In this document: piece by piece, positions 26,701-43,991 of the stretch
Numbering within the stretch: position 1 is the first letter of the stretch
How the letters are laid out: every line of letters begins with the position of its first letter
From: Naegleria gruberi
Lineage: Eukaryota
Assembly (NCBI GenBank): GCA_000004985.1
Contig: GG738875.1
Reading direction: 5' to 3' (one strand)
Length of the DNA: 64,000 nt
Position numbers and translations under genes: made by a program
Notes under the pieces: generated by a model
The model's database searches: none
The model's input: the letters and a program-made list of their open reading frames with translations, nothing else
What the model was told of the DNA's origin: nothing

Positions 26701-29700
26701 AATTCTTCTTCATTGGTCAATTCTTGGTCTGAAACCAGTTCTTCAAGTACATCTATAAACACATAGTAAAGAGGGCAATATGGGTTATTCACAAGAAGAT
26801 TGTTTAGAACCCTCAGGTTCTCAAAATTTCCCTCCTCTAACTCTTCTATATGATCAACACAAATCTTATAGACAATTTGCGTCAAATATTTAACATCTTG
26901 GATTTCAACAAGTTCTCTACATACTACCTCCAATAACTCTTCTGTAAGCTCTAGTCTTGAAATAAATACCATCTTGGATTGGAATAGGTTTTGGGACTTT
27001 GATAAAATTTGCAATATGTTTTCTATTAATTTTGGATCTTCAAGATTGCAATCATAGCAGAGAATCTCTGTACATATTTGTTGGATTTCATATGGGTATT
27101 CCAGTAAATAGTGAGAGAAATCTTTCAAAATTTTTAACAAAGTAGCTGAAACATTCTCTTCCAACAATATTGGCAAAACTGTTGCTATTTTGTCTTTCCA
27201 TTCATTGTTAGGGGTTCTAGTTCCGTCTTGAAGCAGAGATAAGGTGATTATATCAAGTAAATCATCCAAGCATTCAATATCCTCAGGTATCTCAATAGAA
27301 TTTCCACAACAATACTTGATTAATTCTACAACAGCAAGTAATGTTTTTTGGTTATTCCAAACCATTAGTATTAATCTTTCTTTTGGAGAGAGTACTAAGT
27401 TGATCTCGAATAAACCAAGTATGATATTTTCGAATATTTGAGCGAATTCTGAGTTCAGCCCCAGTTCTTGAGCAGTGATTGTCAAAAAATCTCTTTTAAG
27501 AAGTTCTTCTGAGTAATCTTGCAGGCCAAAAACGCATTCAGATGACTCTATCAAAGAAAGAAGTAGAGGCTCTAACTGTTGTTCTTGATTATCACCTTTT
27601 TCAATACTGGAATTTTGTTTTAACATTTCCAACTTGTCTTTGAGTTCCTTATAGATTTCACATTGCCACTTACTATATGGAAGTCTCAAGCCCTTTATCA
27701 ACATAATTTTAGAATTATTAGCTCCATTATTGTGGTATTTAGCAGTGATATTCTTCCATAAAGCTCTCAACTTCGGATCTGCAATGAAAAAGGTCTCAAG
27801 AGCTGAATGTTGTTCAATGAATTTCAAAATATTGAGCAATTTTCGTTGAACAAGGTCTTGCATTTCGTTTTTGATAGCATCTATCAGACAACCAGATTCT
27901 GCAAGCTTTTTCTTGTCAAGGGCAACATGTTTCCTCCAATCAAACTGAACCTTTTGCAATTCTTCATTAAGAATTTCTCCAATAAATTGTAAAAATTCGG
28001 CATCTTCAATTATCTTGGAAGATAATGTACTTATGTATTCAATATTTACGGCAAAGTAGTCTATCTTCATTAATGTTGCCTGAATGATATCTTTCAAGAT
28101 ACTTTCAACATTGTAAAATTCACTCGAGAACATATCATGGATATCTAATAAGTTGGTCTGGTCAAAATTAGGGGACAACTCGTCAATAGTCACTTGTTTC
28201 CACCCATTCATGAAATTTAATTTCCAATCTTCATTTGCATTCTCATAAATATCTCTGGAGATGTGTAAAATGAGGAATACCTTCTTGTCAGTCCTGTCAG
28301 AGTTTTGAATATGATGATCTACAATAAATTTTACCATCGGTACAAATTTACCATCCAAATGAGATTCAAAGTGTATGGTCAACAGCCCATTTTCTTCATC
28401 ATTAAAGAAATCTTCGACTTTTTTAGCAAATTCCCTCTCTGTATTAAACTCTCTTACCCTAATGGAGGATAACCAGGTAAAGTTTAATTCTGTCAAAATA
28501 TGTGAAAAGGTCATAATCATGTGAGCAAAACCATCACAATTGTTGTAGTAGTCTAATAGATTATTATGTTTGTCTAATTGGTATCTATTCAACCAGTTGT
28601 CACATTCTTCCTTAGATACGCTGGAATATGCCAATCTGACTATACCATCAAAGGTTGAAGTTGCGATCAGTGCTTCTTTGCAAATTTCTACACAGTGTTC
28701 TACTGAGGTAGTTGAATTAGTATTTGCAAGAACCAGTGATGATAGTGTATCTGAAGAATAGGATGGAAACATGTCGTTAACAGTAAAAACGTTACTATCT
28801 AAATTAGTAATATTTTCTACCCATTCATTTAAACGCATCACACATTCATTCACTTTAGATTCACTAATATTCTCAAAGTTAAGAATTTGTTTTTCGAATC
28901 GGTTCAAAAAAGGAGGATCACAGGTTGCCAGACGCTTTTGGTCAACTAAAACTATGCATCTAAAATTCTCGTTAACGTGGCACATAGGGTTACTATGTGG
29001 GCCAATAGCAATTCTACAATTTCTTCTTTTAGCGACATAAGTATAGTTTTGATTCAGCATATCGTATAAGCTGCCATAGACACTATCTAAATCTTTCAAA
29101 ATCAATGTGTACCCTTCTTCCATACAATAAATAATCTTATTCAAAACCACATAGCTGTATTCTTCTGTCTTGTCCAAATTGAACTGACTTCCATAAATAA
29201 TTTCAGGACTTCTATTAAGGAACTCTTTGTAATAGTACGTAATGATATCTAATGCAGAATCACTATTAGTAATTAACATTAGATGTCTGGCATTCTTATC
29301 TTCAATATTTTCTTTGATTAGTTCCAATATTGGCAAGTCTGATGGTACAGATTCAGTAATTGATGCTTTTTCAAATAATATTTTCTTGAAATTCATAGCC
29401 GAAGCTGAAAGACCTCCAAAATTTCTATCTATAGCTCTACAAAGACTAACAGCAAAATTTTCTTCTTCTTCAATGATAACACTTTTGACAAGTGAGTAGT
29501 AATCTCTCAAACCATGGAAATTGTTATATTTTTTGTTTGAAATAAATTCGTAGTAGGACTTAGAAAGATAATCTAATAGAAGTTCTATTGTATCTGTCTT
29601 TTCAATATGATTATTTTCAAATAAAATTGTTTTTGCAATTTCCTTTAGCTCATTTTCATCAGCTTCAGGTCTAGAAACATGGACTGCTCTGTTCATTTTT

Positions 29701-32700
29701 GCTGCGTCCAACCTCCAGTTTGAGATACCAACCACGGCAACATCCCTTTTCTTTGGTTCTAACAATGCGTGTAGAGCTTTTAGAGGGTTGTGTGCTGAAA
29801 TTTCAGCTAAACCAATTTCATCCAAAATTACTACTGGTATAACTTTTTCTTCTTTTTCATTAATTTTCAAATATCCTCTTGCCTTATCAAATACCTTGAG
29901 AATACCCTCTGATGTAGAAGACTCTGAACCTTGGAATGCAATGAAGATGAGTTGTGGGAGAGTTTTGAAGTATTTATCTATTGAATCTTCTCCTCTTAAA
30001 TTACTAGTCAAAAGTTGAATAGCTAAACTTTTGCTACAACCTGGCTTACCAACAACAAAAACAGGAAGCTTGTTCAAAATGCACACCAATATTACGAAAA
30101 TATTTTCTTTCAAAGACCTATTCCAGGCAATATTTGGTGGAATTTCCATTCTTCTTAGATAACTTGTCTGCTCTTCATCAACTATCCTTACAAAGTCTTC
30201 TTTTGAAATTCTTGGTAAATGTTTACAAACAGTAGTTAGATAATTTTCTCTATATTCTAACTTTGCTAATCTAGAGTAATAACAAACAGAAAGTGCTAAT
30301 ACAACGCTAGAAATATCATATTTGTCATCACGTTGGTTTTCTTGTATCCACATGATTTGGTTTGCTTTTTTCAATGGTTCTGATCTTTTTTTAAGGGTTT
30401 CTAAGAAATACTGACACAAAACAATAAATCTATTGACGTCTCGCAAACTAACGCTAGAAGCATCTTCCAAATCTCTTACAAAAGCTTGGGATTCACAAAT
30501 TATTGTGCAGAGAATATGTTTTGGAAATTGTATGGTTAATCTTCCAAGCATTGTTTGGATATAACTCATTTCGTCAGTTTGAGATAAAAAGCCATAATCC
30601 CAAATATAATCAATTAAACAATCAGGTAAAGGATTGACTCTATAAGCAAGGTCTGATGCTTTATCTTTTTCTAGAGCAGATGTATAAATATGCTTCCTTG
30701 TTCTATATGGATTGCATGCAGCAATAACTGAGATATTAATTGGTAGGCTGATTCCACGTATTGACTTTAAAGTTACAATTTCTGAGACCAAACCTAAATA
30801 GTCACATGTGTTAATTTCATCCAAGAATACCAAATGCTTTGTATTAGGATTGTTATAAGCTTGTTCTATAACTGCTTCCATAAAGCTGATAATTATGTCA
30901 GGTGTTGTTCCAGCATGGAAATTAAGTAAATTAAAGGAGGCACCTGTTTTTTTAGCTAAAAACTCTACCAGACTTGTTTTTCCACAACCTGTTTCACCTG
31001 ATATCACAACTGGTATACAGGCTTCTACTCTTAATAGTATTAACATCATTTTCAACAAATTGTCTGCAGTCATGGCATATTGACCATCATACTCTGTAAT
31101 AGATCCGGCCATCTTTCCCAACTCAAATAACAAGGCTTCTTGATTGAGAGAGGAGTAATCTGGAAGAGAAACTTTTTGGCTTTGCAAAGTGTCAAAAATA
31201 TCGGAATGGGTTTGTTGAAGGAAAGACAAGTCTCTATATAGAGCTGTGATAGTGGAATCGTACTTATGGAAAGCAACAATAAGGTGATTACTTTCCTCCC
31301 ATCTAACCATTCCAGATTCTTTAAACAACACCACATCTGATTTTGATCCCATCACATGATGTTGTTGTTGTTTTCTATTTCCATGCACAGATCTGGTTGA
31401 AAATTCAGAATACACATCCATTAGTACTTTAACTAGTTTGCTTCTAATTTTTTGGGATTCTGTAACATGTGTAATTTGTTGGGTTTTTAAGAAAACTGAC
31501 TGAGAAAATTTGATAAATTGTTCAGCAAGAACATTAATGAATACGTGCATTAAAGAGTAATTGATCTCCTTCTTATTTTTAAAAAAGTACTTTTGAATCA
31601 AGAGTCTACATTCTTCATCAGATACAACGGTTGCATTTGCATTTGGGCCACTGAATATAATATCTTCCGTATCTATTGTGTCATTATCCAACGCTTTCAG
31701 GTAATTAAATGTGACTTGACTTCTAGATAATAATGATTTGTTGAAAACTAAATTTTCTAAACGAAATTCAATATCTTTCTTATTAATCAAATATGTTTCT
31801 CGAATGGTCAAGAAGTTCCAAAATCTGGATTGGCTCTCTAATTCAATAAATATATCAAGGTTATTAACAGGAATTTTGAACATAACACGGTCATCTATCA
31901 CCATACCAAAAGTTATAATCTCGAACAAAAGATTATTCAGCAAGCAAGCATTTGATTGGGATAAATTTCTTATATCAATGTGTAAACAGTCTATATGTGA
32001 GAGATTCAACCTCTTTAATCTATTGCACAATTCTGCTCTGTTTACTGAATCCATAATAGGTAAATGAACCAGTTTTTTACGTCTACGGAGTGCCTCAAGC
32101 CTAATATTTTCTGTTTTTCCGACACCAGATACATCTGATGAGTAAAGATAGGCTTTTGAAAATGGTTGAATAGCTTTAGTAGTGGTTGTGTTTGGAATAT
32201 TTTGTAGGAATCGTTTGAATTGGTTTACAACATAGCTAGTTTGGTTTCCACTGGTATCTATCAAGCACAGTGAGCTCTTTTTTTCTAGATTAAGTTCTTT
32301 GAGTCTATTAATTTTATCAACTAGTTGAGCTTGAAGTGAGAACGAAAGCTTCTCTATTTGTGCTATGCAATATAGATCACCAGATAGATTGTTAAAAAAC
32401 GATCTTGAAACAATAGCATTAAGTGGCTGCCAAGTAGTACCATATTCACAAAATAGTACTGTGGAGGGTTTAGGAAGGCTATTAGTGAAAATTTTCAGGA
32501 TTGTGCTAATGAGCTCTTTGTTTTCCACAGATAGGACTACAAAAGTATTTCTAAAGTAGGATGATACATTTGCATCAGATTTAACCTTATTGTGAAAGAT
32601 TTTATCCAAAATCTTACCCAATCTTTCTAATCTATGTTCCATGTCTAATAGCTGTTCTTGTTGTTGGAATTGTATCAATTTAATTTCATTCTTGGATATT

Positions 32701-35700
32701 GGATGGATAAAATTTAATAGAGGATAAACATCATCTACTGTGCCATTTCCAGAAAAATACCTTTCCAACACCCAGAATCGCTCTGGAGCGAAGAAATTCA
32801 AAAAGAAATGTTTTCCTAAATAATTATCCAAAATGGTTTGCCAGTTTTGTGTTTCCGTCTCAATTTCTTGGATATTATCTGGCAATGCATCGAAATCTAT
32901 TTTTTCAGAACAATAATCCTTATTGTTTCCCAAAGCTTTCAAATTGTTAATTTTTGTTAAGTAATCAAAAGCAAGATCACAATATTCTATAAACATTTCC
33001 ATATCATGGAAATTTCTTTCAAGAGATTGGTCTTTTCTTGAATTTATAATCAACAATGCTCCGCTTCGTAAATCTTGTATATCAGCTATACTGACTTGTT
33101 TTACCTGGTCGTCATTACCATTGTAAAGCAGAGATAAAATATAGGCAGTAACATTTTCCAATGAAACTCTAAAATAGCCAGATTGTGTGGCATTGTAAAT
33201 TGTTTCCTTTGTGAGCTCTCCTCTGTTAGCAATAGAGTCTAGCAGATTTTTCAAACCGTTAATAGAATGATTTGAGCTTTCGACCTTCACTACTAATTTT
33301 AAATCTACAACAATATTTGATAAACGGTTACAAAAATCTTGGATGCTTCTATATTCCTGGCTAATGATTGGCCTGATTAATTTGCTGGCCTCAATCAAAT
33401 CTGCCACTGTTTCTTGCCTTATAAAGTTTTCTCCCAAATCTTCAACTGCATTTACCAAAGCCATAATACTTTGTTGATCAGTCTCCTTAATGAATTGAAG
33501 GAGTGGAGAAGAAGTAGACAAGGCATCTAGAAAAAGACAGTCCATTCTAGCAAGAGAATAGGTGCTAATTATTTGCTCTACACGCTTACAAGTTTCAATC
33601 CAATTCGATTCTAAGCTCATATTCTTGAATTCATTTAATTCATCAATTTCAGTATCAATATCACCGATGTCAAGAGCATTTGAGCCAGTAATCTCTATAA
33701 TTTTTTGAACCAGCTCCATTACCTGTTTTGTAAAGAGAAGGGTTTTCAATTTGGTAGTAAGTTCTATTACTTTTTCATCACTTGCGTCAACAAGATTACC
33801 CAAAAATTTCACTTCATTTGTAATATTTTCTTTTTTGATAGCTCCTAAAATTTCAATAACTTTGGAGGAAGGTAGTATTCTCCCCTAAAAACAGTTCATA
33901 AGAAAAATGTGTAAGCTCTACACTTATAGCAGAACCAAGATCGATTATATCACTAACCAAGCTAGTATGTTTGCTTGTTCTCGCTTTAAGGAGTTTGGAA
34001 AAGGATTTTGACTGCTTGCAGCAAATGATAGTCTTCAAATTTTTGTTTTCAGCTCCAGATACAGATTGATTTTGGAATTCTGAAAAGCTCATCTTCATCA
34101 TGCCATCATATAAATCCTTATATTTCTTTTTCATCTTTTCGAAATCAGAACAATGGGTACAGTATGCATCAAGAATTTTTCTCATATCATTGATGTGTTC
34201 TTTGTATGTATTGATTTGTTGTATCATATCAGCAAGACTTTTAACACAATCCTCTCCGAGATATAACTTCAATATTTGATGATCATTGTTGTTCAAATTT
34301 TCAATTTTTTCCACTGTTACAGCTGCAAGGTTCTTCTTTAAAAAGTTAATCTTTGTGGTAATGTTCAAAAGTTTTGGCTCTGGTTTTAGAGTAAAGTACT
34401 TAATCAATAAAAACCAAGCATTGTCTTTAAACACTCTTTCCGTGTCCATCAATTCTAATATCTTCAAAAGGATGGCACGTAAGTGAGAAGTGTTGAACTC
34501 CTTTCCGCAACAAACACCATCAATGACATAAAGGTACAAGGGTACTTTTTTGCTTTGCAATTTTTTGATAGTAATTTTAATCACTTCAACCACAGATTCA
34601 TCAAGAAATTTAATTGGCAACGCACACGGTTCGTTGATGATCGTCTTTAAACAAAAATCCAACAGTGACTCATCAGTTCCCTTTTTCTCCAATCGAGGGA
34701 GAATAACCTCATGCACAGTATCTAGAAAATTCTTTCCAAGATTTACGGTACACAAGTGAAGATAATAAGTTAAATCTTCTACACGTACACCTCCGAAAGT
34801 AACTCTAGCGGCAAGCCATTTCTTCAGCTGATCTTTCAATTCATTGTTTTGGAATTTTTTTATAAATTTGCAATGGTGATAAAAAACTTTACAGTCTTTT
34901 CATTGTCGGTCAATTGCATGGTGCTAAGAAGTACTTTTAGTTTGTCTTCCTTCTTGATTTCAGATTGGTCAATGAGTTCTTGAATTCTGATCAATTCTGT
35001 TTCATCTTCCAAATCAACCTTTTCAGACAAAATCAATGCAACCATTTGTGTGTCAACAGATAAACTCAACTTGGGATAGTTTTCTCTAATTGAGAACAAC
35101 TTATCCATGTTGGATTCTGTACCAATTGCTTTCTTGAACTTGTCTTTAAATTCATATGAGTTTGAATATTCTGGATTCAGTTCTAAAATGAAATCAAGAT
35201 ACGTCATTCTAACTGGTAACGAATTCAAGAGGAAACGTGCCACTGCACCAACGTAAGGACTATTCAAAATGGCTTGCTTCTTTTTCATAAGGTTTTCCAT
35301 TATCTCACTCAAAGCTCCTTCGTTTGTTATTAAGTAATTAGTATGATTGTTCTTTACAAACTCATAACCTGTAATTTCGGTGTAATCTGAAGACAAAAGT
35401 CTTAAGGCAAAATCAGGAGTGAGACTGATGGCAATTCTGGTGAGAATAACACCTAAACATTTGGATATTGTTTTGTATTGCTTCATTTCTGAATTAAAGG
35501 GAACAGCTAAAAGAGAGTTGAAAATCAATTTCATATCATTAAATTGCAAATTGAATAGAGCATCTGACAATCCAAGTAGAGTACATATGATGAACCGAGT
35601 GTTAACATCTTCTGGGGTTAGGTTCTTCATAAAGGTCACAGCATAATAGAGATCAAGTTTTTTGTTTGATTGGACGAATGATGTTAATAAACTTTCTAAC

Positions 35701-36941
35701 TTTTCATAAATGTTTCTACCTGTTTACAGATATAACACGGCAATATTCTACAAGTCCAACAGTATGGTTTTGGTCGAACGCAAAACTATATCTACTTTCA
35801 CCAAGCATGACCATACAAGGTCTAATGTCATTGCCAGTGAAAAATCTATTTACTACATTCTTGGAAACGTGCATTTGTAAAACGACAGAATGGACATATG
35901 GATCAAAGTTACCTCTCATTACATAAAATTGTTGCCCAATCGGTTCCATCTCTCCCAATTTTCTTTTTCTATCATCAAAAACCTCTACCTTGCTGTATTG
36001 ATTGTTCTCTTGCCACAAATAGATGGTTCGTTTCAAGAATGCCTCATTGCTGACAATAGAACTGGAAGAAGTTGCTACCTGGTTGTCTTTTGTAATTGGA
36101 ATCTGAATCAGTCTTTTGGAGCGAGTACCCTTTCTGAAAAGTTTCGATCTTCTTCTCTTGTTGCTGATTTTCCTTACTCTCTGATACCACTGAAACAGTC
36201 TGTTGTTCGATTGTTTCTGGAGGATCTGAAATAGGAGGATATTGAACCTTCTTTGGTTCACTGATCGTACTGTTTTCGACTGCTGGTAACTCATTACCAA
36301 TAGTCTGATCAGTATCAATGTCCATATTATCATTCGATTGGTTACCACTTGTTTGATCGACTGGAGGTATGTGTGTTTGATCACCAGATGAAGTGCTAGT
36401 TCTAGGTGTTTGGGATTCGGTTGATGGTTTTGGAGGGCCTTCAGAATTCCCAACCCTATTCTCCTCTTGCACAGTTGTGGAACTGTTGGGAGGATTAGCT
36501 GTTAACATTTTTTTTGAGATGATGAGACGAAACGTGATGAAGTGTCAAAGTTTTATTTACCCAAAGGTTTGGAAACTGTTTGCCTCTCTGATCTTTGATT
36601 GGTACATGAAGAAGTTGCGTTGTGGACGCAGGTTGCCAATCCTCTTGTGTTCGAATTACAACAAGTGCATGGTCCTAAACAGACGAAACAAAACTTAAGT
36701 GAACAATTACTGCATAACATGTGACGACATCCTCTACCACTATGAGTATTTGGAGTAAAGAAGTCTGGACACAAACGCATTGAAGGCACTCCTGTAGCAA
36801 GAAATGGAGCTGATCCGTTCATTGAAATATTCTATTCGAATCACGTTTAGTTACAGATGGATCAATTACGGATAATGAACCAATTAAAATACTTACAACT
36901 GTTTTGCATTTAGAGGCTGCGTCTTGTTTGTGTTCATTCAT
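23718..36941 (-). CDS. giant RNF213/mysterin-like protein: N-terminal Cys-rich module, S/T-rich linker, dynein-like AAA ATPase units, RZ-type zinc finger (putative E3)
   Basis: The main exon 33812..23718 (3364 aa) has no ATG. Its frame stays open upstream to a 'tttttag' acceptor. The exons 34839..33853 and 35639..34860 lie in the same frame, separated by one TAA that sits inside a candidate 65-nt GTAAAG..CAG intron. Further upstream exons are found on the same strand. The first exon 36941..36897 ('MNEHKQDAASKCKTV') ends in GTAAGT. The next exon is Cys-rich, with 'CPDFF..GCRHMLCSNCSLKFCFVCLGPCTCC'. A phase-1 GTAAAT..AACAG intron then joins it to an S/T/Q-rich exon. AAA motifs include 'VISGETGCGKTSLVEFLAKK', 'VVGKPGCSKSLAIQLL' and 'DVSGVGKT'. 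The RZ finger is 'RYRCNCGYVYLIGNCGQPNGTARCPTCGATLGG'. The exact exon boundaries at 35650..36100 are unresolved. Confidence 0.65.
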
Positions 36942-37145: not shown

Positions 37146-38048
37146 ATGGATAAATGTCCAGAAGATGGATTTCTCCTTCCGGAACAAACCAAGGATTTTA
37201 TCTCAAGATCTTTGAGAGGGCAACAAGTAGAGGTGAATGATCAAGAAATTAATGTGATTGAAACTCCACAAGTTGATGAACCAATCACTGTTCAAATTTT
37301 GACACTTGGTGGCTCAGTTTGTCAAGTTAAAACTAACAAGAAGCACTCAATCATCACATTGAAGGAAGAAATTGAGAAGTACATGGATATTCCAGTTGGT
37401 AAACAGTCGCTCTTCTTTAGGAATACAGAATTGGAGAATTACAATAATGGTATGTCAAGAAGAGTGGGAGATTTTGGAATTCAAGATAATGACAAGATCT
37501 ATCTCTCCATTTTAATGAAGGAAATTGATGTTGGAGACAATATCAATGCAGTGAAAGTTAGATTACAATGGAATTGGGTTAATTCTCGTGATTTCTTGGA
37601 TGGAATCGTCTACGTTCTCGATGGAAATAACAACATTACAGCAAGACTCGATTATGATAACAATGTTTCTCCTCTTTGTGGAGAATCAATCTTCCACAAA
37701 GGAGACGATATTGACAATGACAGAAAATTAGGATGTCAAATCATTGGCATGAACCTTGAAAACATTCCAATGTCTGTTCAAACTATTGTCTTTACTTTGA
37801 GCTCATACAGAGCATCTTCTCTCAGCTCCTTCAAGAATCCTCGTGTTCACATCGAAGAGGAAACAAGAGGTCAACCATTGGCTGGTTGTGATACTGATGC
37901 GATTAAATCTCAGGCAATTATTGTTTGTGCTTTTAGAAGATCACAACAAGGATGGAGAATCATTCAAATCAATAGAGAATCTTCAGGCAATGCACAAAAT
38001 GATTCTGCTCTCATAACATCCATTATTGATGTTGTCAGAAATTTGTAG
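37146..38048 (+). CDS. ubiquitin-like (beta-grasp) domain fused to TerD-family domain
   Basis: The N-terminal 'ITVQILTLGGSVCQVKTNKKHSIITLKEEIEKYMDIPVGKQSLFFRNTELEN' has a ubiquitin-fold pattern. The C-terminal half aligns with TerD: 'VKVRLQWNW', 'FLDGIVYVLDG', 'HKGDDIDNDRKLGCQIIGMNLENIPMSVQTIVFTLSSY', and 'QAIIVCAFRRSQQGWRIIQI'. Confidence 0.7.
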   Translation: MDKCPEDGFLLPEQTKDFISRSLRGQQVEVNDQEINVIETPQVDEPITVQILTLGGSVCQVKTNKKHSIITLKEEIEKYMDIPVGKQSLFFRNTELENYNNGMSRRVGDFGIQDNDKIYLSILMKEIDVGDNINAVKVRLQWNWVNSRDFLDGIVYVLDGNNNITARLDYDNNVSPLCGESIFHKGDDIDNDRKLGCQIIGMNLENIPMSVQTIVFTLSSYRASSLSSFKNPRVHIEEETRGQPLAGCDTDAIKSQAIIVCAFRRSQQGWRIIQINRESSGNAQNDSALITSIIDVVRNL

Positions 38049-38059
38049 AATAAACTTTA

Positions 38060-38320
38060 TTAGAAGAAACTAAAAGATGAACCATCTTTGACACCAGAAA
38101 TAACAATATGATCACCATCAAATATTCTCAACTTTTTCAAGCTATCATTAAAACGATCATCACTATTATTAATAGAATCTTGACTTTCCTGTACGTAGAG
38201 ACTCATCTCTGAGCTATTGAGTTTAAATTCGATTCTTGCTGTGGCAGCAACTTCAGAGAGAGTTGTAGTTTCGGCTACTGTGATTTCCTTCTTGGTATTG
38301 TATTCAATCCAAATCTTCAT
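38060..38320 (-). CDS. small stand-alone beta-grasp/ubiquitin-like candidate protein (86 aa)
   Basis: 'MKIWIEYNTKKEITVAETTTLSEVAATARIEFKL...LRIFDGDHIVISGV' shows the beta-beta-alpha-...-beta hydrophobic pattern of a ubiquitin fold. There is no terminal Gly-Gly; it ends '...GVKDGSSFSFF'. It sits tail-to-tail 12 bp from the TerD gene and 94 bp divergent from the E1 gene. Confidence 0.3.
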   Translation of the reverse strand: MKIWIEYNTKKEITVAETTTLSEVAATARIEFKLNSSEMSLYVQESQDSINNSDDRFNDSLKKLRIFDGDHIVISGVKDGSSFSFF

Positions 38321-38413
38321 ATTTTTTATTTATAATTTGCTTGGCAAGCTACGGGTGAATCGTGATTCTATTTGGACCTTTAGGATAATTCACGTTTCGT
38401 ATTTGCGTTTACA

Positions 38414-41400
38414 ATGGGAATCGTGAAACAAAAACATAAAAAAATGTCTGATACGCTCCTTCTCAGTCGTCAATTTAGTGTGTTTGGTGCCAATGAGACT
38501 CATCATATTGAAAACTGCAAGCTTTTGATCATTGGTTGTAATGGATTAGGCAATGAAGTTGGTAAGTTTTGTTTCGTCATTCATTCTCACAACAGTTTTA
38601 TAGCCAAGAACTTGATCATGGCAGGTGTGAAGAATGTTACTCTATTCGATCCGAAGGGTGTAGAATGGAGAGATTTATCAGGTCTTGTAAGTGAGAACAA
38701 TTCCACTTTTTCGAATACTTTTGTTAACATGATTATTCGAAACGTACTACAGACATTTGTTGGTTCGATTACAATGAAAACCAGAGCCAAGATCGTAATG
38801 GATTATTTGAAAGATCTTGCTCCCAAAACAAACATCAAGGAATCAACTGCAAAGACTTTTTCTGCATTATGTCAAGAAAGTTATCTCAGAGAATTCACTT
38901 TTGTTGTTTGTTGTGGTTATCCTCTTTCTTTGAATTCTAAACTTAACGAAACTTGCAGAAAGGTCGGTATACCTTTCCTTTGCTGTGATTCAAAGGGAGT
39001 TTTGAGTTATGTTTTTGAAGATTTGGGTGAAAATTATACCTACATTGTTGATGATGGTAAAACAAATTATGACACCTCAATTCCTATTGTTTCCATTCAA
39101 AAAGTTGAGAATTCTGATAACAAATATCAAATTATGTGTACTTCTACCTTGAGTGATGGGGTTCTTGTTTCATTCCATCAAATTGTTAACAAATCAATGG
39201 GTGAGGTCAGTGTTGAGGCAAAGAATGACAAGTCAATTGAAACTTCTGAGCATCTTAAAGAAGAATCTATTGATAAGGCTGCAACAACGTCTTCTGCCCC
39301 TGAAGTGAGTAATGAAGGGGAAGTTGAAACTGAAAAGCAAGAAAACATTCCACTTGAACAAACAAAACAAAACGAATCCAATATGAATCCTCAAAATTCC
39401 CAAGTCGAAGAAGAGGTGAACATGATGGAAATTCAAGAAAAATCACACCACCTCCTCGTGAAGAACTATTGGTCCAAAAATCATTCAATCTTCCTACTGG
39501 AAAGTTTAAAATTTCCAACTCTTCCAAGAACTGCTTTACAATTGAATGTGAAGATGAAATTAATCCTGAATGTTATGAAGGAGGATGTTTCTTGAAATTG
39601 GTACGAGAACAAAAAAGTGTTTCCTTTGTAAGTAGTTTTGAGTTTTTTCATGTTCAATTTGACAATGTTAATTAGAAACCATTGGAAGAATTGATTAATC
39701 ATTCCAAGGACAGTTTCTTTTACAATAGAAGAAAGCCAATTGACAATTTACAACTAATGTGCTTGAAAGTATATGATATCTTTGTTCAAGAAAATGGACG
39801 TTCTCCACTTCCATGGAACACTAAAGATTGTACTCAATGCAAGGATTTATCAATTCAGCTTATCAATTCCTATATTAATAATGATATCGTTGAAGACCTC
39901 AAAGGTTTAGAAAGCAAAGCAGAGCTATTCTTTAATACAAGCCAGCAAATATTGCACCATTGAATGCCATGGTTGGTGGTCTAGTTGCCCAAGAAACCTT
40001 GAAATCCATCTCCAGAAAGTACACTCCTCTCAAAGATGATCGAGCCCTTAATCAATTCCTTTTCATTGACAACTTTAATTTGGGTGATACTTTGGAAGAA
40101 TCAATAATGAAGGAAAATGTTCAAAATCTTAGAGGAACAATCTATGAAGGTGTTTCCCCACTTCTTACTGAGAGGGCAATTTCACATTTGAACGGAATGA
40201 ATGTTCTTGTGGCTGGTGCAGGTGCTGTTGGTTGTGAGGTTTTGAAAAATCTCTCTTCCATGATGGTGAGCACAAACAAGAACTCTTCGATTCATGTAGT
40301 TGACTATGATCGTGTTGCTCCTTCAAATCTCCACAGACAAATTTTATTTAGAGATTCAGATGCCAAATTAATGGAATTTAAGGCTATTGCTGCGAGTAGA
40401 AAGCTCAAGCAAATGAATCCAGATTTGAATTTGATTGCCAAAACTGAGAAATTATGCTATGAGAGTGAAGAGACTGAATTTCCTGAACAATTCTGGCAGA
40501 ATGTCAATGTCATCTTTTCATGTGTTGATAGCAAGGATGCAAGAGGTTATTTAAGCGATAAAGCTCAAATCCTTCACATTCCCATGATTGAAGGTGGTAC
40601 TGAGGGATCTAAAGGTTCCTCTCTCATCATTCACGAACAAGTTGCAGGTTATGGATCCTACATGAATCTGAATGCTTCAAGAGAGGAGGAAGTTGTAATC
40701 AATAATGCATGTATTCCATCCTTTGCAATTTATAAACCAGAGCAAGCCATAAGAAAGGCAGTAGAACTTTTCACATGGTTCTTTAAGGAAAATGTTGAAG
40801 TTGTGAATTTGCTTGGCAAACATGATCTTTCTGATGAGAAGGTTAAAGAAAATTATGAAATGTATAGAGATGGTCTTGAGAAACCAGAAAAAATGTCCAG
40901 ACAACTCTTTAATATATTGTTTGAGGAACAAATTAATGAAGCTGCTGCCAAATATAATGAAATCAATGAGAAGGGTAAGTTGTAAAATGTTGGAATTGTT
41001 CATAACCAAACTATTCGAAAGATGATGTCAAATTATTGTTGAGAAAACCACCCATTCAAGAAAAATTCAATGCTCATGACGAATCCCATTTAAGATTCCT
41101 CAAAGCATCCAATGCTATCATTAAGGAATTTAAAATCAAAAAGAAAAAGCTCACACCTATCCATTTTGAGAAAGATGAGGATTCTCATTTGGAATGGATT
41201 GTTTCCTGCTCTATTCTATTGTCCAAATGTTATGGAATATTCCATAATGGAGAGAGAGAATTTGTTAGAAGAGTTGCTGGACAAATTATCCCTGCCATCA
41301 TTACAACCACTTCAATGGTCTCAGGTTTCATGTGTCTCAATTTGTTCAAGTATGTCCAGACTGGATATAAGAATCTCAGTAATTTGGATTTTAATACTGC

Positions 41401-42740
41401 AAGTAATGGATATAGTTTCCATCATTGTGTTCAAAAACTGAAGAGTCCAGTCCCTGGAAAGTTAATTTCCAACTTTGAAACAGTTTCAGATTTTGTAATT
41501 TATCCTTCCACAACAATTACTGAATGGGTTGACTTTGTAAAGAGAAAGTATGAAATTGGAGTTGAAAAGATAACAATCTATCCAAAGTTTGATGTTTATG
41601 ACTTTGGATCTCTTCCATGGGGTGAAACGTAAGTTATTTGCAGGCAATCTGATTTTATATTCGAAACCATTTCTAGATTTTATGAAACTTTCAGCAAGAA
41701 TAGAACAATGCAAAAGAAAGAATGGATTACCCTCATCAGTGAGACATACATTGATGGTTTTCCATACAGTTTCAAAACTCAAGTCAGAGTTTCTGTTCCA
41801 CTCAAACTGCAAAATGTTGAAGGATCGTGTTATTTGAATTCTGCATTGCAAGTTTTGCATTCATGTCATGAATTTGTTGAGCAATTGAGAAATAGCTCAC
41901 CAACAACACCTGTTGCAAAGGTTTTGAAATCTGTTTTTGAGGATAACTTTTCAAGAGTAAGTTTTTTCTTAATTCATGTTAATTTGAACCCAAAAAGTCC
42001 AAAATTAATGAACTCAGACGATTGACAAACAGATCAGACAAATATTCAGGAGATACACCAGTAAGTTTTTTTTGCCTAATCATCATCAAAATATTCTAAA
42101 TAATAATAATATTGACAACTAGAAATATGTGAGATCAATTTTTACTGAAATTTTAGGAGAGGAAGAAATTGATAGTGAACTCATCGATTGTAAACTGGTT
42201 GACTATTTCAGTTGGAAATCTCCTCAAATTTGTGATGTTTGTGAAGAGTGTCAACAGTCTATTAGAGGACCTATCAGACCCATTTCCTCTCAAGTTCTTC
42301 TACTTCAAGGAAATCCAAAAGTTTCCACTGAACAATTACTGAACAATAGTTTCTGTTTCGATTCCAATAACAAGTGTCAATGTGGAGGTAAAATTTTCAG
42401 ACACAAAATATTCCAATCCTGCCCAGAATATCTTCTCTGTGAAATTGAAAATCCACAACAAAAGTGGATTCCAAACAATTCTATCGAAACCAAAGTTTAT
42501 ATTGAAACAGTTGACTGTACTTATGAACTAGTTGGTGGAGCCATTTATAGTGGAAATAGAAGTGGTGGACATTGGAGAGCCTACTCAAAACAAGCTTATG
42601 GTTGGTTTAGTTGTGATGATTCAATGGTTTCCTATATTGGAACAACTATTCCAAGTTCATACTTGTTAGGAAGTGCCTTTGTGGCATATAAGAAAGTTGG
42701 CAATGATCCAACAAATGAAGATGAAATGGTTGATGAATAA
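38414..42740 (+). CDS. canonical two-domain E1 (UBA1/UBA6-like ubiquitin-activating enzyme) fused in-frame, via splicing, to a C-terminal USP-type deubiquitinase domain
   Basis: E1 part: the first Rossmann half reads 'LLIIGCNGLGNEV|AKNLIMAGVKNVTLFD', with a 41-nt GTAAGT intron at 38562..38602. The junction into the second half is 'PLNAMVGGLVAQETLKSISRKYTPL'. The active adenylation half is 'VLVAGAGAVGCEVLKNL...VVDYDRVAPSNLHRQILFRDSD'. A catalytic-Cys candidate is 'NNACIPSF'. The E1 continues with 'FEKDEDSHLEWIVSCSIL...GQIIPAIITTTSMVSGFMCLNLFKYVQ' and a UFD-like end. Fusion point: the E1 ORF's TAA at 41630 is part of the donor 'ac|GTAAGT'. Splicing to the TTTCAG acceptor at about 41685 keeps the frame into 'KNRTMQKKEW...'. 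USP part: the Cys box is 'LQNVEGSCYLNSALQVL', the zinc ribbon is 'ICDVCEEC...CQCGGK', and the His box is 'YELVGGAIYSGNRSGGHWRAYSKQAYGWFSCDDSMVSY'. Unresolved frame shifts are noted at about 39440-39470 and about 39935-39960. Confidence 0.7.
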
Positions 42741-42899
42741 ACTAATGTACAATTTATTGACAAACTAATCGAATTGCCTTAGTTTCGTATGATGTTGTCG
42801 GAGAACACTCTCGAACTATATTCATTAATATTCGTACAAAAACTGGAAATTGCTTTTGAAACCAGTTTATTCAACAACAATCAAACTAAACATAAAAAA

Positions 42900-43991
42900 A
42901 TGAGTTTATGTATTGGTGGTTGTGGTTTCTATGGAACACCAGAACGTAGAGGATATTGTTCTTCATGTGAAAAAAAGCATCCGAATAATAATTCAAGTAA
43001 TTTAACAAATGACAGCTTCCAAAAATGGAAAGATGAGCATGATAAACAAAAAGAAGAGGAAGAAATTCTAAAGAAACGTTCTGCTGAATATTTAATTGAA
43101 AATCAACAAAAGAAAGTTCGTAATGAGCCTTGTGTGAAATTTAACATGTCGGAAGTCAGTATGTTGACAGATGGTGGATTATTTGTTGAGATTGTCAAGT
43201 TTTTGGAAGTTTCTGATATGTATCACATTATGCTGGCTTCAAAATCAATGAGTTCATTGGTAAATAATGAGTATATTTGGAAAATTTTATTCGAAAACAA
43301 ATATGGAAATGAGGAGAAACCAATAGTTGGAACTTGTTATGAAAATCTCAGAATGAGAGGAAGGTTTACAAGATCTGAAGTGTCATGGAACTATTTCACT
43401 GAAAATCCATGGGTATTAGAAAAGTTGCTCACCATTAAAATTACCAAAATTGGAAAAATTGGAAATCTCAATTCACCATTGGATCAATTAATTCCTCCCT
43501 CAATTAATAGACAAAACATCACTCAAATAATCAAACATTTATGGCAACCACTCAAAAATGACCTTCCACATCTTATTGAACTACTCACACAAAGAATCAA
43601 AAATCTCCTAGTTGTCAGAGATGAATTATCAAGATGGCATTTGATTTATGTTTTTAAATTACAATCAGAGGATGAAGAGGAAGATGAAGAGGATGAAGAG
43701 GAAAATGTTAGGTTTCTCTCAGGAGGTCTGCCTTACCATCCAGGAAACTCTGGAAATGAATTACAATTTGATTGGTGGGGGAAATGTCCAACCTCTCTGA
43801 AAAGTTTCATGTCAATTCATAATGGATTTGGTGATAATCCAAGTTTGGATTATAGTAAGGGAACTTTTGATAGTTCAGTATTTGTGAATTATCCAAAGTT
43901 TGATGGATTGGAAGTTTTGACGTTTCATCATGGTGCTGATTTGGATCAATGTAAGTATGATAATATTGTAAATTATTGTAATTTTCAATGA
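42900..43991 (+). CDS. A20-type zinc finger + F-box protein
   Basis: The N-terminus 'MSLCIGGCGFYGTPERRGYCSSCEKK' is the A20 zinc-finger pattern C-x2-C-x11-C-x2-C. 'LTDGGLFVEIVKFLEVSDMYHIMLASKSMSSLVNNEYIWKILF' is F-box-like. The protein also has an acidic E/D tract. Confidence 0.55.
   Translation: MSLCIGGCGFYGTPERRGYCSSCEKKHPNNNSSNLTNDSFQKWKDEHDKQKEEEEILKKRSAEYLIENQQKKVRNEPCVKFNMSEVSMLTDGGLFVEIVKFLEVSDMYHIMLASKSMSSLVNNEYIWKILFENKYGNEEKPIVGTCYENLRMRGRFTRSEVSWNYFTENPWVLEKLLTIKITKIGKIGNLNSPLDQLIPPSINRQNITQIIKHLWQPLKNDLPHLIELLTQRIKNLLVVRDELSRWHLIYVFKLQSEDEEEDEEDEEENVRFLSGGLPYHPGNSGNELQFDWWGKCPTSLKSFMSIHNGFGDNPSLDYSKGTFDSSVFVNYPKFDGLEVLTFHHGADLDQCKYDNIVNYCNFQ

What the first reader, a model, noticed from the sequence alone, without database searches (positions are those of the whole stretch)
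38060..38320. Orphan 86-aa beta-grasp ORF wedged between TerD and E1 genes - candidate UBL modifier lacking a C-terminal Gly-Gly
An E1 plus a DUB imply a modifier. This ORF has a ubiquitin-fold-like hydrophobic periodicity and sits in the 366-bp gap between the two genes on the opposite strand. It ends '...GVKDGSSFSFF', so if it is a modifier it would need C-terminal processing, which the adjacent USP might do. Alternatively it is spurious.
Basis: inference. Interest (0 to 1): 0.5.

Follow-up and report, generated by a model that had tools for sequence, protein, structure and literature searches.

The report
Unannotated ubiquitin-like gene beside an E1
A short, unannotated gene in the amoeba Naegleria gruberi probably encodes a small ubiquitin-shaped protein placed head-to-head with an unusual ubiquitin-activating enzyme, but whether it is attached to other proteins as ubiquitin is remains unproven.

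Summary
The window is Naegleria gruberi NEG-M. Three independent lines say the ORF is a real coding gene. An ORF this long arises in only 18 of 5000 shuffles of the gap. Its codon usage is as good as that of true genes and better than all 82 spurious open frames tested. Against a 98-99% identical metagenome strain it shows 4 synonymous changes and 1 non-synonymous change, the same pattern as its TerD neighbour. It is absent from public protein sets. The beta-grasp fold is probable but not shown. The only Pfam hits are three sub-threshold ubiquitin-like families, shuffled controls give nothing comparable, and there is weak similarity to UFM1 and to the NBR1 PB1 domain. AlphaFold failed twice. 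No homologue exists beyond the near-identical strain, so synteny could not be tested. The neighbouring E1 is a divergent UBA1-type enzyme apparently spliced in frame to the USP. The modifier idea (trimming to Gly80 or Gly76, then activation) is coherent but unsupported: there is no Gly-Gly, no E2 in the window, and the E1 may carry a frameshift. Verdict: partly supported, moderately interesting.

The parts
38060..38320 (-). 86-codon single-exon ORF (ATG 38318-38320, TAA 38060-38062): the candidate small ubiquitin-fold protein
   Evidence: sequence. (length, P = 0.0036 in the gap). (codon usage 0.32 bits/codon, above all 82 spurious frames). (4 synonymous: 1 non-synonymous changes against L001). 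(sub-threshold UBL Pfam hits, clean shuffled controls).
38063..38095 (-). C-terminal tail G76-V-K-D-G80-S-S-F-S-F-F86. Gly76 is encoded at 38093-38095 and Gly80 at 38081-38083. These are the only candidate processing or activation sites, and there is no Gly-Gly.
   Evidence: Read directly from the sequence. Placing the tail after the last strand (HIVIS, residues 71-75) is inferred from the extent of the Pfam matches (residues 9-75 and 11-74).
38321..38443 (.). 123-bp divergent intergenic region between the ORF ATG and the probable true E1 ATG (38444). It carries three copies of TCACGWTTC (38357-38365 minus, 38390-38398 plus, 38418-38426 minus).
   Evidence: 4 matches in 64 kb against 0.58 expected, 3 of them here; a 2-nt indel in L001 between 38414 and 38444 argues that the E1 starts at 38444.
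38444..42740 (+). Divergent UBA1-type E1 (inactive ThiF domain, 4HB, active ThiF domain with GxGxxG and the catalytic-Cys motif NNACIPSF, short SCCH, probable UFD). It is apparently spliced in frame to a USP domain with a Cys box (GSCYLNSALQ) and a His box (GGHWRAY).
   Evidence: Pfam. (TIGR01408 Ube1, E = 9e-44). (seven GTAAGT donors, each at an ORF break; the donor at 41629 overlaps the TAA, and 48- or 66-nt in-frame introns lead into the USP). (two frame changes without a GTAAGT donor).
37146..38048 (+). Convergent neighbour: a ubiquitin-domain plus TerD-domain protein (XP_002675874.1, UniProt D2VJ35, Naegleria gruberi). Its stop codon lies 11 nt from the ORF's stop.
   Evidence: TerD E = 2.8e-11, ubiquitin E = 3.3e-6. 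(100% identity to the N. gruberi protein).

Best explanation
The ORF is a genuine, so far unannotated, lineage-specific single-exon gene of Naegleria gruberi. It encodes a free-standing protein of about 86 aa with a ubiquitin-like (beta-grasp) fold. It is transcribed divergently from the 123-bp region it shares with a very divergent UBA1-type E1 gene whose product carries a fused USP domain, and it works with that enzyme. The mechanism I commit to is as follows. The protein is made as a precursor. The USP domain removes the C-terminal tail to expose a single glycine, Gly80 (...GVKDG|SSFSFF) or less likely Gly76. The E1 then adenylates that glycine and takes it onto its catalytic cysteine. Shown: the ORF exists, it has coding signatures, it is absent from annotation, and the neighbours have the stated domain make-up. 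Inferred, with my probabilities: real gene about 0.85; beta-grasp fold about 0.7; functional link to the E1-USP about 0.5; covalent conjugation after processing about 0.25-0.3. The confidence given here refers to 'real gene, ubiquitin-fold protein, partner of the E1-USP', not to conjugation.
For: Coding status. The ORF length is unlikely by chance (18 of 5000 shuffles). Codon usage scores 0.32 bits/codon, against 0.23 +/- 0.09 for true gene segments and 0.00 +/- 0.11 for 82 spurious open frames, none of which reaches it. Against the near-identical metagenome strain L001 there are 4 synonymous and 1 non-synonymous change, pN/pS 0.06, binomial P = 0.006 (0.04 if only transitions are allowed), and only this frame gives that pattern. 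The bona fide TerD neighbour shows the same pattern, 5 synonymous and 1 non-synonymous codon. Fold. The three Pfam hits below E = 0.1 are all ubiquitin-like beta-grasp families: TUG-UBL1 (E = 0.003), USP40 UBL (E = 0.0031, residues 9-75 against profile positions 16-82 of 88) and NPL4 UBD (E = 0.038). Nine shuffled or reversed controls give nothing below 0.088. The best PDB sequence hits are the NBR1 PB1 beta-grasp domain (E about 0.04). Pairwise similarity to human UFM1 gives E = 7e-4 and shuffle P = 0.0017, z = 5.8. Context. The E1 is UBA1-type with intact ATP and catalytic-Cys motifs and is so divergent that its best database match is 33% identical. A GTAAGT donor overlapping the E1 stop joins it in frame to an active-looking USP. 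Ubiquitin-system genes lie in a row: an RZ-finger/AAA giant, Ub-TerD, the ORF, the E1-USP and an A20/F-box protein. A 9-mer repeated three times marks the shared intergenic region.
Against: No Pfam hit reaches its gathering score. AlphaFold2 gave pLDDT 39 and 35, so no fold was obtained. No homologue exists other than a 99% identical strain variant, in 5.8 billion and 1.84 billion proteins, JGI metagenomes and IMG/VR, so conservation of the fold and tail is untested. The selection evidence rests on five substitutions. There is no Gly-Gly. By established knowledge, every known canonical two-ThiF E1 and every USP acts on Gly-Gly C-termini, and the residue before the scissile bond would be Asp or Ser here. 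No E2 core motif is found in the 64 kb. The E1 needs two frame changes without a GTAAGT donor. One of them (39936-39960) looks like a 1-nt frameshift, and no public protein model covers its active domain, so the E1 might be a pseudogene. In a compact genome, head-to-head adjacency does not prove a shared function. No transcript or peptide evidence was accessible.
Confidence: 0.45

Rival explanations
1. It is a real gene for a small beta-grasp protein that is never conjugated. It would act as a non-covalent adaptor or regulator, in the manner of a PB1 domain, the NPL4 UBD, TUG-UBL1 or Hub1. It would bind a partner (the E1-USP, the Ub-TerD protein, the RZ-finger giant or p97) through its surface or its aromatic FSFF tail.
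For: All sub-threshold family hits are to non-conjugated UBL domains, and the PDB hits are to the NBR1 PB1 domain. The stretch Y42-VQESQDSINNSDDRF resembles the acidic OPCA segment of PB1 domains (my reading of the alignment). There is no Gly-Gly, and Asp or Ser precedes the candidate glycines. No E2 is present in the window.
Against: The Pfam PB1 family itself does not hit at E <= 1. By established knowledge, most free-standing ~80-aa beta-grasp proteins in eukaryotes are modifiers. The best single-protein similarity is to the modifier UFM1. No PB1 partner was seen in the neighbouring genes. This reading does not explain why a USP is fused to the neighbouring E1.
Confidence: 0.28
2. It is a spurious ORF: non-coding DNA between two genes that happens to be open for 86 codons.
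For: No annotation and no exact entry among about 15 billion public proteins. No homologues beyond a strain variant. After correction for the number of gaps, the length statistic alone is only about 0.1. AlphaFold is not confident. All Pfam hits are below threshold.
Against: Codon usage is above the mean of true genes and above every one of 82 spurious open frames. The 4:1 synonymous bias appears only in this frame. Three beta-grasp Pfam hits contrast with none in nine controls. The ATG is the first after an in-frame stop and has an A-rich context.
Confidence: 0.13
3. It is a real lineage-specific small protein with some other fold or partly disordered, functionally unrelated to the ubiquitin-system neighbours. 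On this reading the UBL-like matches are chance.
For: AlphaFold2 gives no fold. The Pfam 'ubiquitin' family and the Ufm1 family do not hit. Residues 44-60 are polar and loop-like. Adjacency in a compact genome may be coincidental.
Against: The sub-threshold hits agree with each other, all falling in one structural class over nearly the whole length. Shuffle controls are clean. It is improbable that a protein picked at random would both look beta-grasp-like and sit inside a run of five ubiquitin-system genes.
Confidence: 0.09

Closest known systems
UFM1 (ubiquitin-fold modifier 1)
   Same: Almost the same length (85 against 86 aa). It is the best pairwise similarity found: 28% identity over 65 residues covering strand 2, helix 1 and strand 3, E = 7e-4, shuffle P = 0.0017. 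UFM1 is conjugated through a single C-terminal glycine exposed by removal of a short propeptide (established knowledge).
   Different: The Pfam Ufm1 family does not hit at E <= 1, and phmmer against the PDB does not list UFM1. In the BLAST alignment UFM1 Gly83 falls opposite Val73, not a glycine. UFM1 is activated by the single-domain E1 UBA5 and trimmed by UfSP proteases (established knowledge), whereas here the neighbour is a two-ThiF UBA1-type E1 with a USP.
Ubiquitin/NEDD8-type modifiers with their UBA1-type E1 and USP-type proteases
   Same: A free-standing ~80-aa candidate beta-grasp protein lies next to an E1 with inactive and active ThiF domains, 4HB, SCCH, a catalytic Cys and a probable UFD, plus a USP with Cys and His boxes. 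The motif H71-I-V-I followed by a 5-residue tail ending in Gly80 mirrors ubiquitin H68-L-V-L-R-L-R-G-G (my alignment).
   Different: No Gly-Gly. The Pfam ubiquitin family does not hit. Similarity to ubiquitin and NEDD8 is not above shuffles (P = 0.1 and 0.34). No E2 is nearby. An E1 fused to a USP is not a known eukaryotic architecture as far as I know.
Non-conjugated beta-grasp interaction domains (TUG-UBL1, USP40 UBL, NPL4 UBD, NBR1 PB1)
   Same: These are the only families or structures that score at all: E = 0.003, 0.0031 and 0.038 and about 0.04, with matches spanning nearly the whole protein.
   Different: All are below the gathering thresholds. Those domains are parts of larger proteins, whereas this is a stand-alone ORF.
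Prokaryotic operon-encoded Ubl systems (Bil systems BilA-D; CBASS Cap2/Cap3)
   Same: The genes for the E1, a deubiquitinase-type protease and a small candidate Ubl are physically clustered, and the target C-terminus need not be Gly-Gly (established knowledge). The E1 active domain has weak hits to PADLOC E1-E2 (Cap2-like) and BilD models.
   Different: The E1 here is clearly the eukaryotic two-domain UBA1 type (TIGR01408) and contains spliceosomal introns. The protease is a USP, not a JAB. The ORF, TerD and USP have no PADLOC hits.

Membership tests
Ubiquitin superfamily (beta-grasp UBL, Pfam clan of PF00240) | A profile match above the curated threshold to a member family | tested here: not met
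   Best hits are 18.1 bits against a cut-off of 23.3 (TUG-UBL1), 17.9 against 23.2 (USP40 UBL) and 14.9 against 21.9 (NPL4 UBD). PF00240 itself is not listed.
Ubiquitin superfamily (beta-grasp UBL, Pfam clan of PF00240) | Beta-grasp fold (mixed sheet wrapped around one helix) | tested here: inconclusive
   AlphaFold2 gave pLDDT 39 (single sequence) and 35 (two sequences), so there is no usable model. Indirect support comes from concordant sub-threshold hits with clean shuffle controls.
Conjugated ubiquitin-like modifiers | A C-terminal Gly-Gly, or at least a glycine, at the end of a flexible tail, free or followed by a short propeptide | tested here: inconclusive
   No Gly-Gly. Single glycines are present at 76 (ISG) and 80 (KDG), followed by 10 or 6 residues. 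The tail is unchanged in the single strain variant, which is uninformative.
Conjugated ubiquitin-like modifiers | A cognate E1 with an adenylation site and a catalytic cysteine | tested here: inconclusive
   A UBA1-type E1 with GxGxxG, SNLHRQ and NNACIPSF motifs lies 123 bp away, head-to-head. Cognacy is inferred from position only, and the E1 reading frame may be broken at 39936-39960.
Conjugated ubiquitin-like modifiers | A dedicated E2 or E3, and conjugates on substrates | not testable with these tools
   No HPN...C E2 core motif appears in any frame of the 64 kb. An RZ-finger/AAA giant and an A20/F-box protein are nearby. Detecting conjugates needs mass spectrometry.
UFM1 family | A match to the Ufm1 profile and a Val-Gly C-terminus at the aligned position | tested here: not met
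   No Ufm1 Pfam hit at E <= 1. In the pairwise alignment UFM1 Gly83 is opposite Val73. Only pairwise similarity is found (E = 7e-4).
UFM1 family | Activation by a UBA5-type single-domain E1 | tested here: not met
   The neighbouring E1 is two-domain UBA1-type (TIGR01408 E = 9e-44; two ThiF domains, 4HB and SCCH).
PB1 domain | A match to the PB1 profile, with either an OPCA acidic motif or a conserved strand-1 lysine | tested here: inconclusive
   NBR1 PB1 chains are the best PDB hits but only at E about 0.04. Pfam PB1 is not listed at E <= 1. An acidic stretch at residues 42-59 and Lys2 are present (sequence).

The most novel reading that the evidence does not exclude
The ORF is the precursor of a previously unknown, Naegleria-specific ubiquitin-like modifier with a single C-terminal glycine. 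It is matured by the USP domain fused to its own dedicated UBA1-type E1. Together with the neighbouring Ub-TerD protein, the A20/F-box protein and the RZ-finger/AAA giant E3, it would form a physically clustered, self-contained conjugation system. That would be a eukaryotic counterpart of the operon-encoded bacterial Ubl defence systems, and the first canonical-type E1 and USP working on a non-Gly-Gly C-terminus.
Probability: 0.2. Interest if true: 0.75.

Novelty: new member of a known kind. Interest (0 to 1): 0.42.

Why it matters
If real, this is a missed gene in a reference protist genome, and it is the missing small-protein component of a tight run of ubiquitin-system genes: an RZ-finger/AAA giant, Ub-TerD, an E1 fused to a USP, and an A20/F-box protein. 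Lineage-specific ubiquitin-like modifiers are rare. One that uses a UBA1-type E1 without a Gly-Gly end, matured by a protease fused to that E1, would widen the known rules of E1 and USP specificity. It would also give a simple, testable two-protein system. If it is only a non-conjugated beta-grasp adaptor, it is an ordinary orphan small gene whose main value is to improve the annotation.

Tried and rejected
- **AlphaFold2.** Run on the single sequence and on the two-sequence alignment; both were useless (pLDDT 39 and 35). I therefore did not run fold search. I chose not to pad the alignment with unrelated ubiquitin domains, because that would be circular.
- **Homologue searches.** I searched the word-indexed 5.8-billion set, full HMMER on 1.84 billion representatives, JGI metagenome contigs and IMG/VR.
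- **Neighbours as a route to syntenic loci.** Ub-TerD finds only itself. The E1 active domain finds only a 33% identical protein (my 1e-10 cut-off was strict for that database size). Nothing turned up in metagenomes or viral contigs.
- **Exact look-ups of gene positions.** All failed.
- **Paralogue search within the window.** tblastn found none. There is no similarity to the ubiquitin domain of the TerD protein.
- **Other profile libraries.** PADLOC and NCBIfam gave nothing for the ORF.
- **Literature.** Nothing on this locus, on the project PRJEB11402, or on RNF213-like proteins in Naegleria.
- **AATAAA as a poly(A) signal.** It is present at the ORF's stop, but only about 5 of 23 genes in the window have one, so it is not a usable test.
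- **Internal intron that would give a Gly-Gly end.** Rejected: there is no GTAAGT-like donor in the ORF, and only 11 nt separate it from the TerD stop.

Full report
**Source of the window.** The window is nuclear DNA of the amoeboflagellate Naegleria gruberi NEG-M. The 300-aa protein encoded at 37146-38045 is 100% identical to XP_002675874.1 / UniProt D2VJ35 on a 396-kb scaffold, and two other window ORFs are also exact N. gruberi proteins. The DNA is about 35% G+C and gene-dense. It has short introns that almost all begin with GTAAGT.

On the minus strand an ATG at 38320 opens an 86-codon frame that ends at TAA 38060-38062. An in-frame TAA lies four codons upstream, so this is the first possible start. 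The ORF occupies 261 of the 365 bases between the stop of the Ub-TerD gene (+ strand) and the first ATG of the E1 ORF (+ strand). It is therefore convergent with TerD, with the two stops 11 nt apart, and divergent from the E1.

**Is it a gene?** Three independent tests say yes.
- **Length.** Only 18 of 5000 dinucleotide-preserving shuffles of the gap contain an ATG ORF of at least 86 codons. That is P = 0.0036 for this gap, and about 0.1 after allowing for the roughly 30 gaps in such a window.
- **Codon usage.** I trained a codon log-likelihood ratio on 15 well-supported genes of the window against their five non-coding frames. The ORF scores 0.32 bits/codon. True 86-codon gene segments score 0.23 +/- 0.09. 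The 82 spurious open frames of at least 60 codons score 0.00 +/- 0.11, and none reaches the ORF. The other five frames of the same region are negative.
- **Substitution pattern.** An ENA metagenome contig (L001, 1132 bp, sample ERZ929261) from a near-identical Naegleria strain spans the locus. Inside the ORF it differs at five positions: four synonymous third-position changes and one replacement (S53G, in the polar loop). This gives pN/pS = 0.06, with binomial P = 0.006, or 0.04 if only transitions are considered. No other frame gives this pattern. The bona fide TerD gene on the same contig shows the same signature, five synonymous codons and one non-synonymous codon.

The ORF is not annotated. 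Its exact sequence is absent from a collection of about 15 billion public proteins that does contain its neighbours. I put the probability that it is a real protein-coding gene at about 0.85.

**What is the protein?** It has no detectable relatives other than the strain variant. I searched the word-indexed 5.8-billion protein set, a full HMMER scan of 1.84 billion representatives, JGI metagenome contigs and IMG/VR. It has no paralogue in the window. A diverged, unannotated orthologue in other Naegleria would have been missed.

- **Family-level evidence is sub-threshold but consistent.** The only Pfam matches below E = 0.1 are three ubiquitin-like beta-grasp families: TUG-UBL1 (E = 0.003), the USP40 UBL (E = 0.0031, residues 9-75 against profile positions 16-82 of 88) and the NPL4 ubiquitin-like domain (E = 0.038, residues 11-74).
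- **Controls are clean.** Nine shuffled or reversed versions of the sequence gave nothing below E = 0.088 and nothing from this class.
- **Solved structures.** The best sequence matches are the PB1 domain of NBR1, also a beta-grasp, at E about 0.04.
- **UFM1.** I checked my recalled human UFM1 sequence against the PDB. It aligns with 28% identity over 65 residues (strand 2, helix 1, strand 3), pairwise E = 7e-4, z = 5.8 and P = 0.0017 against shuffles. Ubiquitin, NEDD8 and the TerD protein's own ubiquitin domain are not above shuffles.
- **AlphaFold2 failed twice.** pLDDT was 39 and 35. That is usual for orphans and says nothing either way.

I put a beta-grasp fold at about 0.7. By the extent of the Pfam matches, the last strand is H71-I-V-I-S75. 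The tail G76-V-K-D-G80-S-S-F-S-F-F then follows it.

**The surroundings.** The downstream gene is a UBA1-type E1.
- **Domain make-up.** It has an N-terminal inactive ThiF domain, a 4HB, and an active ThiF domain with GAGAVG, SNLHRQ and the catalytic-cysteine motif NNACIPSF. A short SCCH remnant and a UFD-like end follow. The active domain matches TIGR01408 (Ube1) at E = 9e-44.
- **Divergence.** The nearest database protein is only 33% identical, and no public gene model covers the active domain.
- **Start codon.** L001 has a 2-nt indel between the ATGs at 38414 and 38444. The E1 therefore probably starts at 38444 (MSDTLLLSRQF...), which leaves a 123-bp divergent intergenic region.
- **Intergenic motif.** That region contains three of the four copies of TCACGWTTC in the whole window (0.58 expected), in both orientations. 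They could serve a bidirectional promoter. They could equally serve the E1 alone.
- **Fusion to the USP.** All seven GTAAGT hexamers between 38400 and 42800 coincide with ORF breaks. The one at 41629 overlaps the apparent E1 stop codon. Both plausible acceptors, giving introns of 48 or 66 nt, keep the frame into a USP domain with intact Cys and His boxes. The E1 and the USP are thus most likely a single polypeptide.
- **Unresolved frame changes.** Two further frame changes have no GTAAGT donor. One (39201-39463) can be bridged by a GTGAGG...AG intron. The other (39936-39960) has no room for an intron that keeps the conserved helix, and it looks like a 1-nt frameshift: an assembly error or a pseudogene lesion.
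- **Wider cluster.** Nearby lie a 3364-aa AAA protein with an RZ-type zinc finger (RNF213/ZNFX1-like) whose upstream exons include an IBR-like Cys-rich piece, the Ub-TerD protein, and an A20-zinc-finger/F-box protein. No E2 core motif occurs anywhere in the 64 kb.

**Most likely mechanism.** I read the ORF as the small ubiquitin-fold partner of the E1-USP. A USP fused to an E1 makes most sense if it matures a dedicated precursor that housekeeping proteases cannot handle. A very divergent E1 suggests an altered substrate. The one free-standing beta-grasp candidate in the cluster sits head-to-head with that gene and carries a glycine five residues after its last strand, followed by a six-residue extension. 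The proposed path is that the USP trims the protein at Gly80 (or Gly76) and the E1 then adenylates it and forms a thioester with it. Only the sequence facts are shown; every functional step is inferred.

Against this reading:
- All known canonical E1s and USPs work on Gly-Gly, whereas Asp or Ser would precede the scissile bond here.
- There is no E2 in the window.
- The E1 may be broken.
- The similarity hits are mostly to non-conjugated domains.
- Nothing shows that the tail is conserved.

I put a functional partnership at about 0.5 and true conjugation at 0.25-0.3.

**Rivals.**
- A non-conjugated beta-grasp adaptor, PB1-like or UBX/NPL4-like or Hub1-like (about 0.28).
- A spurious ORF (about 0.13).
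- A real small protein of another fold, unrelated to its neighbours (about 0.09).

**Comparison with known families.**
- **UFM1.** The ORF resembles it most in size, in pairwise similarity and in the single-glycine-plus-propeptide logic. It fails the membership tests: no profile hit, the aligned position is not glycine, and the neighbouring E1 is not UBA5-type.
- **Ubiquitin/NEDD8 systems.** It resembles them in the type of E1 and protease but lacks Gly-Gly and any profile match.
- **Ubiquitin superfamily in general.** It cannot be filed in any Pfam family at curated thresholds. Membership is probable, not established.
- **Bacterial Bil and CBASS Ubl operons.** The system-level analogy rests on gene clustering only.

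**Verdict.** The solid result is a probable missed gene for an orphan ubiquitin-like protein inside an unusual ubiquitin-system gene cluster. The modifier claim remains a testable hypothesis.

Noticed in passing
window 41600-41720: The E1 and the USP appear to be one gene. A GTAAGT donor at 41629 overlaps the apparent E1 stop (TAA 41630-41632). Acceptors at 41676 (48-nt intron) or 41694 (66-nt intron) both continue in frame into the USP Cys-box exon. As far as I know, an E1 fused to a USP is not a described eukaryotic architecture.
   Followed up: partly
window 39930-39960 and 39201-39463: The E1 reading frame changes twice without a GTAAGT donor. At 39936-39960 (frame 1 to frame 0) the conserved helix VEDLKGLESKAELFF and the motif APLNAMVGG lie in different frames with no room for an intron, which points to a 1-nt frameshift (assembly error or pseudogene). 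The low-complexity acidic stretch at 39201-39463 can be removed by a GTGAGG...AG intron. No public protein covers the active ThiF exon.
   Followed up: partly
window 38414-38444; L001 columns 273-274 of alignment A1: The metagenome strain has a 2-nt insertion between the two candidate E1 start codons. The real E1 start is therefore probably the ATG at 38444 (MSDTLLLSRQF...), not 38414.
   Followed up: yes
window 38357-38426, and 36529-36537: The 9-mer TCACGWTTC occurs 4 times in 64 kb (0.58 expected). Three copies lie in both orientations inside the 123-bp ORF/E1 intergenic region, and the fourth lies in the 5' part of the RZ-finger gene region. It is a possible shared cis-regulatory element of the cluster.
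   Followed up: partly
window 23718-36822 (minus strand): A giant gene: a 3364-aa ORF with AAA ATPase modules and an RZ-type zinc finger (PF20173, E = 5e-16), resembling RNF213/ZNFX1. Further upstream ORFs on the same strand include a Cys-rich IBR-like piece (36553-36822). It lies next to the Ub-TerD, UBL, E1-USP and A20/F-box genes, making an unusual run of ubiquitin-system genes for a eukaryote.
   Followed up: partly
window 37146-38048 (+): The neighbour combines an internal ubiquitin-family domain (residues ~47-122, no Gly-Gly) with a C-terminal TerD domain. It found no relative other than itself in the 5.8-billion protein search. Codons 279-287 carry a cluster of changes against the metagenome strain.
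   Followed up: partly
window 42789-43991 (+): An ORF with an A20-type zinc finger (E = 1.6e-6) and a weak F-box-like match starts only 48 nt after the USP stop. Its exact sequence is not in the public protein collection.
   Followed up: no
L001 (ENA ERZ929261, run ERR1078381, project PRJEB11402): An environmental metagenome contains a Naegleria strain about 98.6% identical to NEG-M over this locus. Two other window proteins also have ENA metagenome cluster-mates at >=90% identity (P0005, P0007). More contigs of that strain could give further substitution data.
   Followed up: no
window 38046-38062: The 11-nt spacer between the convergent stop codons reads TAG-AATAAACTTTA-TTA. Each strand therefore presents AATAAA at or overlapping its own stop. 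Only about 5 of 23 genes in the window have AATAAA near the stop, while many have TGTAA-like motifs, so its meaning as a poly(A) signal is unclear.
   Followed up: partly
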